Assembly: GCA_022009775.1 (NCBI GenBank)
Contig: CP091723.1
Span: 1,029,121 to 1,093,120, forward strand
Length of the DNA stretch: 64,000 bases
Direction of reading: 5' to 3'
Origin: Christensenella sp.
GTDB lineage: Bacteria; Bacillota; Clostridia; Christensenellales; CAG-917
Shown one piece after another: positions 20,261 through 31,134 of the stretch. The notes under the pieces are model-generated. The model had not been told where the DNA came from and did not search any database. It saw only the letters and a list, made by a program, of their open reading frames with translations. Positions within the stretch are counted from its first letter, which is position 1; every line of letters starts with the position of its first letter. A program made the position numbers and the translations under genes.

Positions 20261-20537
20261 TGTGGGATAGGGGATTCTCCACGATTTCATCGTGGTGTTG
20301 CTTTGCAACATGAACCCCTGCGGGCTGATAACAAACGAAGAGAGACGCAAGCGCGTAGCATTTGCGGACATCGAGTGCAGTCTCATAGCCAACAAATCAG
20401 ACACGAAGTGTCCGCGAAAGGCGCAGTGCAACGCACGATTTGTTGAGTGTAGACGCTCAGAGAAGTGAACAAGTTCACTCTCTTCGCTATTACGGAAGCG
20501 TCCAGGTCGCTTCCTACGAATCCCCTTATCTCCACCA
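20261..20537 (+). repeat. Direct repeat R1: candidate structured RNA ending in an exact 21 nt copy of the tRNA-Ala 3' end
   Basis: The 205 nt core 20312-20516 matches 30907-31111 with 3 mismatches. 20517-20537 (CGAATCCCCTTATCTCCACCA) is identical to tRNA-Ala 20205-20225. The element contains many hairpins and one pseudoknot. The repeat itself is certain; its function as an RNA is a hypothesis. Confidence 0.9.
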
Positions 20538-20540
20538 GTC

Positions 20541-20578
20541 AGAATACAAGTTGAACCCCTCAACTTGTATTCTTTTTT
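20541..20578 (+). terminator. Intrinsic terminator directly after R1
   Basis: 14 bp stem AGAATACAAGTTGA / TCAACTTGTATTCT with loop ACCCC, followed by T6. Confidence 0.85.
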
Positions 20579-20683
20579 ATGCTTTTTGGGAAAATTAAAG
20601 TTTCACGATGCAATAAAAAGGCTCGTTGACAAATATGCCTGTAATTTTGTCGTAACAAGAAATAGTCGTTGAATTTGAGTATA

Positions 20684-20708
20684 ATAAAAGCCCTGACAAT
20701 CGTCAGGA
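20684..20708 (-). terminator. Intrinsic terminator downstream of the AraC-family gene
   Basis: Read on the minus strand: CCTGAC GATT GTCAGG followed by GCTTTTATT. Confidence 0.55.
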
Positions 20709-20794
20709 CTCTTTGTTATCGGGCTTGTAAATCGTATCTCGATTCTGTCATTATATAGTATTATTTGATCAACCAAATAGTTTATTATAAGGTT

Positions 20795-21660
20795 TTAGAT
20801 GGCTTTCATAAGGTGGAAATATTGCTTTGGAGTCAGGTCAAATTCCTTTTTGAAGGCGCGGAAAAAGTGGGTGTAGTCAGAGAATCCACAGCGCACGTAA
20901 ACGTCAGTTATGGACAGACCTTGCTCAATCAATTCCTTGGACATAAGCAGGCGTTTTTTCAGGATATAACTGTGGGGTGAAACGCCGGTTTCTTCCTTGA
21001 AAAGGTGGGCAAAATAATACTTGTTGGTATACAGTGCGTTTGATATGTCGTCAAGGGTGATTGGCTCGGTTAGATGCTCGGAAATATACTCGATTGCACG
21101 GGATATAATCTCGGATTGTTCCGCCTGTTTTGCTTGCCTGTTTTTAAGATAATGAGCACCTAAAAGGGTGAGGGCGGTGATGACGTGATTTTCTGCAGTC
21201 AAGTCCGCGCCAAAAGAGTTGGAGTTTTCATTTTCGATGACTGCAATAAGCTCGGTCACAAGTTTGTCAGAAAGAGCGGAGTTTCTCACAAGATAAGCAC
21301 CCTTTTCCTTTGCCTTTTGAAAGCAGGTGGCAAGGTCGGTTGAGGGGGGAGGAAAGACGCTTGACGTAGGCAGGATTTATCCACAGCACGATGCGGTCAT
21401 AGGACTTGCTTCCGTCCTTGACGTTGGGTTGGTGCAGATAGTTTGGGGGGGATGAGCAAAACGTCCCCCGCTTGCAAACGATATAGGCCGTCCTCAACGA
21501 TATAATCAACTGCCCCCCCGATGAAGCAGTATACCTCATAAAAATCGTGGGAGTGCATCTCAACGGTTTTGAAATACTTATCACGGTAAAGATTTACTTC
21601 GAAATCTTTCTTTGACATAAGCTGTGAAGATTGCCATTTTGTGGTGATATTTTCTCTCAT
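20795..21660 (-). CDS. AraC-family regulator (N-terminal cupin plus C-terminal HTH), frame broken twice at G-runs
   Basis: Three ORF-track pieces (21397-21660, 21267-21584, 20795-21289) join into one cupin-AraC protein if 1 nt is corrected at G7 21445-21451 and at G6 21344-21349. The joins read ...GDVLLIPPNYLHQPNV...INPAYVKRLSSPSTDLATCFQKAKEKGAYLVRNSALSDKL... The C-terminal HTH includes YFAHLFKEETGVSPHSYILKKRL. Confidence 0.8.
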
Positions 21661-29088: not shown

Positions 29089-29106
29089 GCAAGGAAGGGA
29101 GATATT

Positions 29107-30700
29107 ATGAAAGAGAAGAAAATCAATACCCCCATTGATAGACCTTTTGGCAATAGAGATAAGATTGGATACATGATGGGCGACTTCGGTTGCAACATGA
29201 GTTTCCAACTTATCAGCAGTTTTTTGATGTTGTTTGTCACCCAAGGTCTTGGACTTACAATGGGACATTGGTCAATCATCGTCATCATTTCAAAGATTTT
29301 TGACGCAATCAACGATCCCATCATCGGCGCGTTGGTTGACGCAAGAAAGCCTGGTAGACGTGGCAAATATATTCCTTGGATTTTCTGTGGCGCCTTTGCA
29401 ATCGCACTTACGACGGTGCTTTTGTTCCTTGACGTCAGAGCACTCTCCTACTGGGGCAGATTTGCATACGTGCTTGTTATGTACTGTGTGTGGTCTGTTG
29501 CATACACCGCTGCAAACGTGCCTTACGGCTCGCTCAACGCAGCCCTCACCGACGATTCCGGTCACAGAGCATCACTTTCATCACTTCGCAGTATTGGCGC
29601 AGGCGTCGCAATGCTTCCTATGATGATCATCGTGCCTAGACTCATTTACGGCGAGGCAGATCCAGTCACAAATATCGAGCCTCTCCTTCCTGAGGTTTTC
29701 GTGTGGGTAGCACTGGCTTGTGGGGTTGCTGCAATCGGCGGATTTATGCTCACTTGCTTCCTTACGAAAGAAAGAAAACAAGTTGAAAAACCCAAAGAAA
29801 AATTCAACTATCTTCAAACGCTCAAAGGCTTTGTCACAAACCGTGCTGCACTCGGTATGTGTCTTGCATCATTCAGCCAACTTGTGTTTGTCATGTCCTA
29901 CGCAACCACTTTGCCTCTCGTGTGTCAACTCTTCTTCGGTGACGCAAAGGCGTCAGGCACGGTCGGCATCGTCATGATGTTGCCTATGATGTTCGTCATC
30001 CCCTTTATGGGCAAACTTACAAGAAAGTTCGGAAAGAAAGAGATTGCAATGTGGCCCAACTTGGTGGCAATCGCCGTGCTTGTGATTATGCTGATCATTC
30101 CTTTCCCCAGAACAAGCGCAGGTATGTGGGCATACGCAGCTTGCCTCGGCGTTGCAATGTTGGCATCAGCTCCCTTGAACCTTGGCACTTGGTCAATGGT
30201 GGCAGACTGTGTTGACGAGCAAGAAGTGAGGACAGCAAAGAAAGACGGCAAAAACCTCTACGCAACCTACCTCACAAAAGAGCAATTCGGCAAGCGTGAC
30301 GAAGCAAGTGTGTACGCAACTTACTCCCTTGCGAGAAAGGCAGCACAAGGGATAGGCTCTGCGCTGGTGGCAGCCCTTGCAGGCTTGGTTGGATTTGACT
30401 CGACAAACGTCCAAGCAACCACTCCTCAAACTTCACAAAACCTGTTGACCCTGTCCATTGTACTTCCTTTGGTTGGTTCAATCCTCATCTTCGTGGCATT
30501 CTTCTGTGTGTACAACCTGAACAAGAAAAAGGTCATCGAGAACACGGAATTCCTCCGCGATAAGAACGCACGTATTGCAATCCAACTTGCAAAGGGAGCA
30601 CAACCAGACGACGGAACGGACGAAGCAGAAGTCATCACTTTTGGCAACGTGATAGAAGAAGTTTCAACTGAAACAGAACCTGCCCCCCGCCCAAGCATAA
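29107..30700 (+). CDS. GPH-family (glycoside-pentoside-hexuronide) cation symporter
   Basis: Multi-TM protein starting DKIGYMMGDFGCNMSFQLISSFLMLFVTQ. The ORF-track ORF (to 30813) reads through a terminator hairpin. A 1 nt correction in the C6 run 30683-30688 gives ...AQA* ending at TAA 30698-30700. Confidence 0.8.
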
Positions 30701-30716
30701 CCAAAAATCAATCAAC

Positions 30717-30748
30717 AAAAAACGGACTGATTTTAGTCCGTTTTTTTG
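30717..30748 (+). terminator. Intrinsic terminator after the GPH transporter
   Basis: Stem AACGGACT / AGTCCGTT with loop GATTTT, followed by T7. Confidence 0.8.
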
Positions 30749-30847
30749 TTGTGCCGATGAATATTAATTTTGATTGTTTTGACAAAACGAATGGTTTATT
30801 TTGTCGGTTTTGACATTTAAAATATTGATTAATCAAACAAGTATTTT

Positions 30848-31134
30848 TGTGGGGGAATAAGTGGATTGTGCGATTTTTCAAAAATCGCACCACGGTTTCA
30901 CCGTGCGAACCCCTTCGGGCTGATAACAAACGAAGAGAGACGCAAGCGCGTAGCATTTGCGGACATCGAGTGCAGTCTCATAGCCAACAAATCAGACACG
31001 AAGTGTCCGCGAAAGGCGCAGTGCAACGCACGATTTGTTGAGCGTAGACGCTCAGAGAAGTGAACAGGTTCACTCTCTTCGCTATTACGGAAGCGTCCAG
31101 GTCGCTTCCTACGAATCCCTTTGTTTCCATCACA
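30848..31134 (+). repeat. Direct repeat R2: second copy of the candidate structured RNA, ending in a degenerate tRNA-Ala 3'-end copy
   Basis: Core 30907-31111 matches R1 with 3 mismatches. The 3' segment CGAATCCCTTTGTTTCCATCA matches the tRNA-Ala core at 17/21 positions, and all four differences are transitions. The 5' part diverges from R1 but keeps a hairpin through a compensatory change. Confidence 0.9.

What the first reader, a model, noticed from the sequence alone, without database searches (positions are those of the whole stretch)
20261..31134. A ~270 nt hairpin- and pseudoknot-rich element (R) occurs twice, 10.3 kb apart, beside tRNA-Ala
The 205 nt cores 20312-20516 and 30907-31111 differ at only 3 positions, and those fall where an RNA structure tolerates them. 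Two are in hairpin loops (CCC-CTGC-GGG vs CCC-CTTC-GGG; AGTGAAC-AA-GTTCACT vs -AG-). The third turns a U.G pair into C-G in GAGUG-UAGA-CGCUC vs GAGCG-UAGA-CGCUC. On the opposite strand that third change would be an A.C mismatch, so it argues for a plus-strand RNA. The divergent 5' parts keep a hairpin through a compensatory A-U to G-C swap (CCACGA-TTTCA-TCGTGG at 20279-20295 vs CACGG-TTTCA-CCGTG at 30891-30905). The core can form a long-range helix (CGAAGAGAG 20336-20344 with CTCTCTTCG 20478-20486). It can also form an H-type pseudoknot: GCGGACA 20364-20370 pairs with TGTCCGC 20409-20415, interleaved with CAACAAATC 20390-20398 pairing with GATTTGTTG 20437-20445. At least four further local hairpins are present. 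Each copy is followed within 3 nt by a different intrinsic terminator. I cannot match it to tmRNA, SRP RNA, RNase P RNA, 6S RNA, a T-box or any riboswitch I know.
Basis: seen in the sequence. Interest (0 to 1): 0.75.

Follow-up and report, generated by a model that had tools for sequence, protein, structure and literature searches.

The report
Structured tRNA-tailed element ending mobile cassettes
The two repeats belong to an undescribed family of folded, non-coding elements in uncultured gut Clostridia that end in a copy of the neighbouring tRNA's 3' end and mark the far end of small gene cassettes stacked behind tRNA genes, here including a 10.6-kb glucuronide-utilisation island.

Summary
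R1 (20262-20537) and R2 (30849-31132) share a 226-nt block at 97% identity, and their 205-nt cores differ at 3 positions.

- Each R ends in a copy of tRNA-Ala(CGC) nucleotides 56-76, exact in R1 and 81% in R2.
- Each R begins with a segment complementary to that tail, which forms a closing helix.
- Units of [terminator – optional cargo – R – tail] are gained, lost and stacked between strains, with boundaries exactly at the tRNA 3' end.

Relatives follow tRNA-Ala(GGC), Lys(CUU), Lys(UUU) and Arg(ACG). In each the tail equals that tRNA's 3' end and the 5' arm has changed to stay complementary.

Seven divergent members share 13 helices. 22 of 79 pairs change on both sides, against 7.6±2.0 in shuffles. 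The proposed pseudoknot is not supported.

No Rfam family matches. No promoter precedes any copy and no recombinase lies in cis. Short (~125 nt), medium (~150 nt), full (~280 nt) and ~370-nt forms exist.

The same island sits in another species flanked only by a TCCACCA repeat, which suggests site-specific insertion at the tRNA-like 3' end.

Best reading: a new structured element, most simply an RNA with a tRNA-like end, possibly a folded-DNA site, at the attachment-site end of integrase-less cassettes. Its function is unproven.

The parts
20150..20225 (+). tRNA-Ala(CGC), the platform gene. Its last 21 nt (20205-20225, CGAATCCCCTTATCTCCACCA, tRNA positions 56-76) are the repeated 'core'.
   Evidence: ARAGORN; Rfam tRNA 72.5 bits; repeat family D11.
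20227..20259 (+). Terminator module 'a' (13-bp hairpin plus T-run). It is the left-end module of the cargo-less cassette.
   Evidence: Terminator scan. The same module precedes R in other strains, and alternative modules b, c and f are shared between different cassettes.
20262..20537 (+). R1, full-length form (276 nt). Parts: 5' arm 20262-20277; P2 20279-20295; P3 20296-20310; P4 20315-20324; variable domain 20325-20486 (P5 20336-44/20478-86, P6 20346-66, P7 20373-77/20454-58, P8 20388-98/20437-47, P9 20465-78); junction CTATTAC 20487-93; P10 20494-20514; tail 20517-20537, which equals tRNA nt 56-76 exactly.
   Evidence: Coordinates; fold; family consensus and pair counts; closing helix dG -25 kcal/mol.
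20541..20573 (+). Terminator module 'c', the left end of the glucuronide cassette. It directly follows whichever core copy the island is joined to.
   Evidence: The junction CTCCACCA|GTCAGAATAC follows R1 in the window, L009 and L006, and follows the tRNA itself in L008 and L010. The same junction occurs in another species (L044).
20795..30745 (.). Cargo of the cassette: AraC-type regulator (minus strand; split in the window by homopolymer errors), uxaC, uxuA, SDR, KDPG aldolase, PfkB kinase, GH2 glycosidase (beta-glucuronidase type), MFS_2 transporter and its terminator (30718-30745). No recombinase.
   Evidence: Pfam scans; intact gene calls in other contigs; indel check.
30849..31132 (+). 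R2, full-length form with the second type of 5' arm (arm 30849-30867, P2 30868-90, P3 30891-905, P4 30910-19, P5 30931-39/31073-81, P10 31089-31109). Its tail 31112-31132, CGAATCCCTTTGTTTCCATCA, is a diverged copy of the core (81%).
   Evidence: The same position is occupied in other strains by a short R, by a full R with a type-1 arm, or by no R.
31135..31156 (+). Hairpin 'd' after R2 with no clear U-tract. The flotillin promoter (31174-31203) and gene follow.
   Evidence: Sequence; not called as a terminator and promoter call.

Best explanation
R is a member of an undescribed family of structured, non-coding elements. They form the tRNA-distal end of small, recombinase-less cassettes that insert at the 3' end of tRNA genes in uncultured gut Clostridia.

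A cassette has four parts: an intrinsic-terminator module, cargo genes or none, R, and a tail that copies tRNA positions 56-76.

The window holds two stacked cassettes behind tRNA-Ala(CGC):
- an empty one (terminator a plus R1);
- a 10.6-kb glucuronide/hexuronate-utilisation one that ends in R2 and the oldest, diverged tRNA fragment.

Shown:
1. R is a conserved fold of one strand: a closing helix P1 made by the 5' arm and the tail, a multi-helix junction, and a dispensable peripheral domain.
2. The tail always equals the 3' end of the associated tRNA, and the 5' arm co-varies with it.
3. Cassettes are present, absent or stacked with boundaries exactly at the tRNA 3' end.
4. The same island occurs in another species, flanked only by TCCACCA.

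Inferred:
1. A recombinase encoded elsewhere exchanges DNA at the terminal ~7 nt (TCCACCA for the Ala tRNAs). Every inserted cassette thereby recreates a landing site, which would explain the tandem arrays.
2. The folded form is most simply an RNA. It would be made by read-through from the tRNA or cargo promoter and trimmed like a tRNA, because P1 plus the NCCA overhang imitates the acceptor/T-arm minihelix.

Its function for the cassette (mobilisation, control of recombination, or maintenance) is unknown.
For: Tail and arm:
- The exact 21-nt core sits at 20205-25 and 20517-37, with an 81% copy at 31112-32.
- The 5' arm pairs with the tail in all 17 variants tested, dG -9 to -25 kcal/mol.

Other tRNAs:
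- Ala(GGC): tail ...TTGGCTCCACCA and arm CCAAGG.
- Lys(CUU) and Lys(UUU) in L021.
- Arg(ACG) in MT835493, which is bacterial DNA.

Structure:
- 79 pairs in 13 helices, 93% of cells paired.
- 22 pairs change on both sides, against 7.6±2.0 in shuffles (0 of 500) and 1-5 in slid controls.
- Short and medium forms: 12 of 30 pairs change on both sides.
- One hairpin swaps GUGAAC/GUUCAC for GCAAG/CUUGC.
- G.U versus A.C cells are 47 to 15, and one G.U pair is invariant.

Cassette behaviour:
- Between 0 and 3 R units per tRNA, with two 5'-arm types and three length classes recombined.
- R1 is exactly present or absent: L008/L010 against the window.
- R lies at the right end of a methylase/ATPase island.
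- Filled versus empty site, L044 against L012, has a 7-nt TCCACCA repeat and an identical GH2 protein.
- In L022 a CGC-type tail lies behind tRNA-Ala(GGC), so tail positions 56-69 belong to R and only the last ~7 nt are exchanged.

Not a known family: Rfam is negative.
Against: - No sigma-70-like promoter precedes any R. Each lies directly behind a terminator, so transcription would depend on read-through. There are no expression data.
- Folding energy does not separate RNA from DNA or sense from antisense (z -5.3, -6.6, -5.7, -6.4). Weinberg et al. 2017 (PMC5737381) note that such motifs cannot be assigned to RNA or ssDNA by sequence analysis alone.
- No recombinase was found in the window or consistently beside R. 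The only one at this tRNA belongs to an unrelated serine-recombinase element.
- R is not needed for the island to persist. Several strains, and the other species, carry the island without R2.
- Homologous recombination between conserved flanks could explain part of the polymorphism.
- The covariation rests on 7-10 sequences. The P2/P3 hairpins of different arm types may not be strictly homologous.
Confidence: 0.5

Rival explanations
1. R is a folded single-stranded DNA recombination site, analogous to integron attC or the CTX-phage attP(+). On the lagging-strand template, or in a transferred single strand, the 5' arm and tail would form a duplex copy of the tRNA target with extrahelical bases. 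The body would act as a variable terminal structure. A recombinase acting in trans would insert and excise cassettes, with the tRNA 3' end serving as the attI-like platform.
For: - The layout resembles cassettes: promoter-less units, empty units, tandem arrays, no recombinase in cis, and variable body length around a constant closing helix.
- No promoter is needed.
- The single-nucleotide bulges in P1 of R1 resemble extrahelical bases.
- DNA-parameter folding is as significant as RNA folding.
- R is on the strand that is the lagging-strand template if replication is co-directional with the rpoBC, secA and ribosomal-protein genes. This is an inference from gene orientation.
- There is a precedent for a complex candidate attC and for integrase-less arrays (PMC5737381).
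Against: - R is a multi-branched fold with conserved unpaired junctions (CGAA, CUGA, CUAUUACGG). It is not one long imperfect hairpin.
- It has an invariant G.U pair and many G.U substitutions.
- P1 copies only the right part of the tRNA T-arm region, not a symmetric recombinase site.
- The attC consensus boxes are absent from the sequence.
- The island can insert with only TCCACCA and no R at its right end.
Confidence: 0.22
2. R is a guide-type RNA of a mobile element, in the manner of omega-RNA (TnpB/IscB) or bridge RNA (IS110). The conserved body would be a protein-binding scaffold. The tRNA-matching tail and/or the complementary 5' arm would specify the tRNA gene as target for a nuclease or recombinase encoded elsewhere.
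For: - A structured element sits at the very end of a mobile unit, adjacent to target-identical sequence.
- One conserved body is paired with five different tRNA-specific arm/tail sets. That looks like re-programmable, base-pairing-based specificity.
Against: - No TnpB, IscB, IS110 or Cas gene lies next to any copy.
- Arm and tail pair with each other, which would mask a guide.
- Rfam families for omega-RNAs did not match.
- Large parts of the body are dispensable.
Confidence: 0.08
3. R has no function of its own. It would be the decaying double-stranded arm of the attachment site of an ordinary integrase-mobilised island, or a MITE-like repeat with terminal inverted repeats, and the hairpins would be incidental.
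For: - The position next to displaced tRNA fragments is typical of islands in tRNA genes (Islander-type logic, PMC4383910; tycheposon preprint).
- There are nested deletions (short, medium and full forms) and rearranged fragments: L019, L021 Lys(UUU) and L042.
- The 5' arm and tail look like inverted repeats.
Against: - Compensatory changes in many helices and 93% pairing across members that are only ~72% identical.
- Unpaired junction nucleotides are conserved across five tRNA contexts and several species.
- There is no target-site duplication outside the inverted repeats, and no dispersed copies away from tRNA 3' ends.
Confidence: 0.07
4. R is a tmRNA-like or alanine-specific tRNA mimic, with an acceptor stem carrying G3.U70 that would be charged by AlaRS.
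For: - In the window, P1 of both copies can be drawn as a 7-bp acceptor-like stem with G.U at the third pair, followed by ACCA. This is read directly from the sequence.
- A weak permuted-tmRNA hit (26 bits, threshold 47) spans the tRNA 3' end and the R1 5' arm.
Against: - ARAGORN finds no tmRNA and Rfam scores are below threshold.
- Inspection of the three reading frames shows no tag reading frame.
- There is no local T-arm.
- The family also uses Lys and Arg tRNA tails.
- In the Ala(GGC) members the arm does not pair with positions 70-72.
Confidence: 0.02

Closest known systems
Genomic islands and integrase-less cassettes accreted at tRNA genes (Islander-type islands, tycheposons, CIME-type cis-mobilisable elements)
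   Same: - An intact tRNA followed by direct repeats of its 3' end.
- Strain-variable cargo, here metabolic and defence genes.
- Tandem stacking, with the most diverged tRNA fragment farthest from the tRNA.
- Units without their own recombinase.
(literature.)
   Different: - Every unit ends in a conserved, covarying folded element whose 3' end is the tRNA copy and whose 5' end is complementary to it.
- Many units carry nothing else.
- No cognate integrase was found.
- The same body is used with five different tRNAs.
Integron attC sites and integrase-less attC arrays (CALIN); CTX-phage attP(+)
   Same: - A repeated structured element at the 3' end of each cassette.
- A closing helix formed by inverted terminal segments with bulged bases.
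- A variable internal part.
- Arrays of cassettes, including empty ones.
- The recombinase need not be adjacent.
   Different: - No RYYYAAC/GTTRRRY boxes.
- A multi-branched fold rather than one hairpin.
- The platform is a tRNA 3' end.
- G.U-rich evolution.
- No IntI or Xer link was shown.
GOLLD and ROOL RNAs (large structured RNAs often next to tRNAs, in or outside prophages)
   Same: - Structured, function unknown, frequently adjacent to tRNA genes and possibly co-transcribed with them (PMC5737381, PMC12286853).
- Peripheral domains are variable.
   Different: - No Rfam match.
- Much smaller (125-370 nt).
- R carries a copy of the tRNA 3' end plus a complementary 5' arm, and behaves as a cassette end.
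tmRNA and other tRNA-like minihelix ends
   Same: The 5' and 3' ends pair into an acceptor/T-arm-like helix ending in NCCA. The tRNA-Ala versions keep a G.U at the third pair.
   Different: No T-arm hairpin, no tag reading frame, not alanine-specific, and not detected by ARAGORN or Rfam.
Element-end guide RNAs (omega-RNA of TnpB/IscB, IS110 bridge RNA) and REP/REPIN-RAYT repeats
   Same: A structured non-coding element at the edge of a mobile unit next to target-matching sequence. A trans-acting enzyme is possible, as with RAYT.
   Different: No associated TnpB, IscB, IS110 or RAYT gene was seen. Arm and tail pair with each other. Copies occur only at tRNA 3' ends.

Membership tests
tmRNA | Detected by ARAGORN or the Rfam tmRNA models | tested here: not met
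   ARAGORN finds none. Rfam gathering search finds none. The only hit is a 26-bit permuted-tmRNA match (threshold 47) over the tRNA 3' end plus the R1 5' arm.
tmRNA | Alanine-specific tRNA-like domain with a local T-arm, and a tag reading frame | tested here: not met
   There is no T-arm hairpin, because the T-stem 3' strand pairs with the 5' arm. Family members carry Lys and Arg tails. Inspection of the three frames shows no tag-like reading frame.
Island integrated in a tRNA gene (Islander-type) | Intact tRNA plus a displaced 3' fragment as a direct repeat bounding strain-variable DNA | tested here: met
   Three core copies (D11). Presence/absence with exact boundaries. Filled versus empty site between species.
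Island integrated in a tRNA gene (Islander-type) | Tyrosine integrase encoded inside the island next to an att site | tested here: not met
   No recombinase lies between 20.5 and 31.1 kb or elsewhere in the window, and none is consistently near R in 40+ loci. The L001 recombinase belongs to another element.
Cis-mobilisable / integrase-less cassette (CIME-like) | att sites on both sides, no integrase, tandem accretion | tested here: met
Cis-mobilisable / integrase-less cassette (CIME-like) | A helper element whose integrase recognises the same att site | not testable with these tools
   Whole genomes of the host species could not be scanned.
Integron attC | Imperfect inverted repeats closing a single hairpin with extrahelical bases and a variable central part | tested here: inconclusive
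   A closing helix with bulges and a variable body is present, but the fold is multi-branched.
Integron attC | Conserved R''/R' boxes (RYYYAAC ... GTTRRRY) and an integron integrase with attI | tested here: not met
   The 5' arm and tail sequences are tRNA-derived and contain no such boxes. No intI was found nearby.
MITE | Terminal inverted repeats plus a target-site duplication, with dispersed copies | tested here: not met
   Inverted ends are present, but there is no duplication outside them. Copies occur only behind tRNA genes or at island ends.
Known Rfam families (GOLLD, ROOL, omega-RNAs, ribozymes, group I/II introns, T-box, 6S, RNase P, SRP) | Covariance-model match | tested here: not met
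   No hit to the R body at gathering thresholds or at E<=10.
omega-RNA / bridge RNA | Adjacent TnpB, IscB or IS110 recombinase gene | tested here: not met
   Pfam scans of neighbouring genes.

The most novel reading that the evidence does not exclude
tRNA genes of gut Clostridia may serve as platforms of an integron-like cassette system. In this reading R is the cassette's recombination module: a complex folded single strand (DNA or RNA) whose closing helix displays a copy of the target tRNA's 3' half. Target choice would be re-programmed by co-variation of the 5' arm and tail. A recombinase encoded elsewhere would read this structure to insert, stack and exchange promoter-less or self-contained cargo, such as glucuronide utilisation or restriction/defence genes, within and between species.
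Probability: 0.2. Interest if true: 0.85.

Novelty: new variant of a known kind. Interest (0 to 1): 0.68.

Why it matters
Islands behind tRNA genes are a main route of gene flow in bacteria. The usual picture needs an integrase inside the island and treats the flanking tRNA fragment as a scar.

Here a conserved folded element is built onto that fragment in several uncultured gut species. Four properties stand out:
- It keeps its structure through compensatory change.
- It is re-fitted to at least five tRNAs.
- It travels with cargo that matters for the gut niche, namely beta-glucuronidase and hexuronate catabolism.
- No recombinase lies in cis.

If R is an RNA, it is a new tRNA-linked RNA class with a tRNA-like end. 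If R acts as folded DNA, it would be a second kind of structure-specific cassette site besides attC. Either way it gives a concrete sequence handle, usable as a covariance model, for finding such cassettes and their missing enzyme in metagenomes.

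Tried and rejected
- tmRNA or alanine mimic: rejected. 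ARAGORN and Rfam are negative, and Lys and Arg members exist.
- Known RNA families: nothing at E<=10.
- Own promoter: none upstream of R1 or R2, and none visible in other members.
- Phage or plasmid carriage:
  - Five viral-contig scans gave nothing real. Searches were empty, and the two hits are chance matches in coding DNA.
  - Plasmids gave no match.
  - The single 'phage' hit, MT835493, is bacterial chromosome.
- Exact-protein look-ups for the window's TsaD and flotillin found nothing. The PEPCK look-up gave one contig.
- Thermodynamic discrimination of strand or chemistry: uninformative.
- Pseudoknot: not supported.
- Arm/tail covariation between R1 and R2 in the window alone is not consistent, because arm types are found with either tail. 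The real covariation appears only across different tRNAs.
- Candidate recombinase in L001:
  - It is a very common 304-aa Xer-like protein.
  - It sits in a serine-recombinase/defence element.
  - The homology of that element starts ~160 nt after the tRNA.
  - It is not linked to R.
- One metagenome hit (L032) is a chance match inside an ORF.
- Literature searches found no description of such an element.

Full report
**1. The observation**

Two copies exist. The repeat finder gives 20312-20537 and 30907-31132 (226 nt, 97%). The pairwise alignment shows three differences inside the 205-nt cores. Both copies fold much better than shuffled controls, z = -5.3 and -4.9. A profile search finds no third copy in the window.

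The window is the same strain as metagenome contig L009. It differs only by ten homopolymer-length indels and no substitutions over 22.7 kb. Odd ORF lengths such as the split AraC, and possibly some run lengths in R2, are therefore assembly artefacts. The three core differences are not.

**2.

- The last 21 nt of tRNA-Ala(CGC) are CGAATCCCCTTATCTCCACCA (20205-20225). They run from the third T-loop position (tRNA position 56) to CCA. This sequence recurs exactly at the end of R1 (20517-20537) and at 81% at the end of R2 (31112-31132) (D11).
- The first ~16-19 nt of each R are complementary to that tail, so the two ends pair into a closing helix, P1.
- Between the copies lies a complete glucuronide/hexuronate operon: AraC regulator, uxaC, uxuA, SDR, KDPG aldolase, kinase, GH2 and an MFS transporter. 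It contains no recombinase.
- Upstream lie secA, prfB and tsaD. Downstream lie a flotillin-like gene and PEPCK.

**3. Strain and species comparison**

Contigs carrying the identical SecA show that the stretch behind the tRNA is built from units of the form [terminator module] – [cargo or nothing] – [R] – [core]. The architectures seen are:

| Loci | Architecture |
|---|---|
| L008, L010 | tRNA – island |
| window, L009 | tRNA – a – R1 – core – island |
| L006 | tRNA – b – short R – core – island |
| L004, L007 | tRNA – short R – diverged core – flotillin |
| L002, L003, L005 | two stacked units |

- R exists as a short form (~125-134 nt), in which a small CGCTGACG stem replaces the central 150 nt. 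It also exists as medium forms that keep one hairpin of that domain, and as full forms.
- Two (later three) types of 5' arm are found with either tail.
- Three further species representatives (UMGS1043, UMGS1042 and a Hadza MAG) have R behind the same tRNA even where the neighbouring genes differ.

**4. Other tRNAs**

The metagenome scan and one GenBank record show R behind four other tRNAs. That record is labelled phage, but it carries hydrogenase-maturation and YbaK genes, so it is bacterial.

- **tRNA-Ala(GGC):** tail ...TTGGCTCCACCA, arm CCAAGG...
- **tRNA-Lys(CUU):** full R, ~72% identical, tail CGAGTCCCTGAGGACGCACCA, arm TGCGT...TCAGGGACT.
- **tRNA-Lys(UUU):** a rearranged copy.
- **tRNA-Arg(ACG):** a 372-nt form with extra insertions.

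In every case the tail equals the 3' end of that tRNA from the same T-loop position, and the 5' arm is complementary to it. This rules out an alanine-specific or tmRNA-like role.

**5. Structure**

RNAalifold on seven divergent full-length members gives 13 helices and 79 pairs. On that alignment:

- 93% of cells are paired.
- 22 pairs change on both sides, against 7.6±2.0 in column shuffles (0 of 500 reach it) and 1-5 when partners are slid.

The supported helices are:

- P1.
- Two 5' hairpins.
- P4 (CCC/GGG; its loop reads UUCG, UGCG or UACG, varying only at the second position).
- The long-range P5 (CGAAGAGAG/CUCUCUUCG).
- P6, with an invariant G.U.
- P7.
- P8 (GCCAACAAAUC/GAUUUGUUGAG).
- P9.
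- P10.

P9 is replaced in some members by a different hairpin of the same shape (GUGAAC/GUUCAC becomes GCAAG/CUUGC). Short and medium forms share a compact junction, with 12 of 30 pairs changing on both sides. Unpaired junction segments (CGAA, CUGA, CUAUUACGG, CCUA) are nearly invariant.

Folding energy does not tell sense from antisense or RNA from DNA. Substitution patterns give a moderate bias for the tRNA-sense strand: 47 G.U-type against 15 A.C-type cells, and 14 against 8 toggling pairs.

**6. Where recombination happens**

Loci anchored on the island's GH2 gene show the same island, with an identical GH2 protein, in the Hadza-MAG-type species.

- Empty site (L012): ...CTCCACCA|CGAAGATATCATAC...
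- Filled site (L044): ...CTCCACCA|GTCAGAATAC ... island ... GTTTTCGTCCACCA|CAAAGATATCATAC...

The ~11-kb insertion is thus flanked only by TCCACCA, with no R at its right end.

In L022, a unit with a CGC-type tail lies behind tRNA-Ala(GGC). The two tRNAs share only the ends of the 21-mer. Tail positions 56-69 are therefore intrinsic to R, and they are the part that pairs in P1. The last ~7 nt behave as the exchanged site.

The right end of the island is itself variable:

- R2 plus diverged core plus flotillin.
- R2 plus perfect core plus another unit (terminator b' and a DUF4379 gene).
- No R2, with a breakpoint exactly at the R2 5' edge.
- R deleted by a TCGTG microhomology.

R is therefore a frequent terminal module, but it is not indispensable.

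**7. Enzyme and expression**

No recombinase is encoded in the window or consistently near R. The 304-aa tyrosine recombinase in the L001 island is Xer-like and extremely common. It belongs to a serine-recombinase/defence element whose homology starts ~160 nt after the tRNA, and it is not linked to R.

No sigma-70-type promoter precedes any R. Each follows an intrinsic terminator directly.

**8. Interpretation**

Shown:
- A new structured-element family tied to tRNA 3' ends.
- Its cassette behaviour.
- Inter-species spread of a cargo unit.

Inferred:
- Site-specific exchange at the terminal nucleotides by a trans-acting recombinase, with each R tail recreating a landing site.
- The folded form is an RNA made by read-through and matured like a tRNA, because P1 plus NCCA imitates the acceptor/T minihelix.

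The main rival is a folded single-stranded DNA site of the attC or CTX type. It explains the lack of promoters and the cassette layout. It fits less well with the branched fold, the conserved junctions and the G.U pattern.

As Weinberg et al. (PMC5737381) state, sequence analysis alone cannot separate RNA from ssDNA motifs. GOLLD and ROOL are a precedent for structured RNAs next to tRNAs with unknown function.

**9. Comparison with what is known, and verdict**

The phenomenon belongs with tRNA-site islands and integrase-less cassettes. A covarying, tRNA-tailed, target-matched folded module at the cassette end is not described in Rfam or in the literature I could search.

I rate it a new variant of a known kind. 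Interest is 0.68. There is a 20% chance that it is a genuinely new structure-guided cassette system.

Noticed in passing
window 62432-62453 and 62515-62536; 62824-63786: The 3 nt before tRNA-Ser(CGA) plus its first 19 nt (TTGGAAGTGTATCGAAGTGGTC) are duplicated ~83 nt upstream, together with part of the leader (CGCAACACATAAA...). A BsoBI-type restriction endonuclease gene follows the tRNA, so this may be another tRNA-linked variable region.
   Followed up: partly
window 38310-38871: A tandem repeat of three ~188-nt units (75% matches) lies upstream of the S10 ribosomal-protein operon. There is no Rfam hit, and its nature is unknown.
   Followed up: no
window 20539-27785 (e.g. AraC 20795-21660, uxuA, aldolase, MFS): The window differs from metagenome contig L009 only by 10 homopolymer indels. 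These split AraC into three ORFs and alter other ORF lengths, which is most likely a long-read assembly artefact.
   Followed up: yes
window 31133-32912 (right boundary GATAAAATCAACCGTACATAG at ~32892-32912): The slot between the island/R2 and the 95-aa ORF before PEPCK is a replacement hot spot with a common right boundary. Strains carry the flotillin gene, a DUF4379 gene, or a small 92-124-aa ORF there.
   Followed up: partly
window 20683-20714 and 32775-32806: Two similar terminator-like hairpins (AAAAGCCCTGAC...GTCAGGGCTTTT) lie in inverted orientation, 12 kb apart. They bracket the island plus R2 plus the flotillin gene.
   Followed up: no
L019 9220-9361 (minus strand as read): A fragment of the R central domain is inserted in the opposite orientation beside tRNA-Leu(UAG). 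It is flanked by a 13-nt direct repeat of that tRNA's 3' end (TGGTACGGATGAC on the strand shown).
   Followed up: partly
L024 ~5340-5365 (same in L027): A 3' fragment of a different tRNA (GTTCAAATCCCCATGGACGCCTACCA) lies just upstream of an R cassette, at the right end of a methylase/HATPase island. No full tRNA lies nearby.
   Followed up: no
L001 15268-22667 and L049 7726-16675: A mobile element carries a large serine recombinase, a 62-65-aa ORF, a 304-aa Xer-like tyrosine recombinase, exchangeable defence cargo (GmrSD plus methylase, or a type III RM system) and a 207-aa sigma-like gene. In L001 it is inserted ~160 nt downstream of tRNA-Ala.
   Followed up: partly
L034/L035 (GenBank MT835493.1): This record is deposited as 'Bacteriophage sp.', but the region examined carries bacterial chromosomal genes (HypA, HypB, an oxidoreductase, a YbaK-type editing protein, tRNA-Arg). 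At least this end is bacterial DNA.
   Followed up: partly
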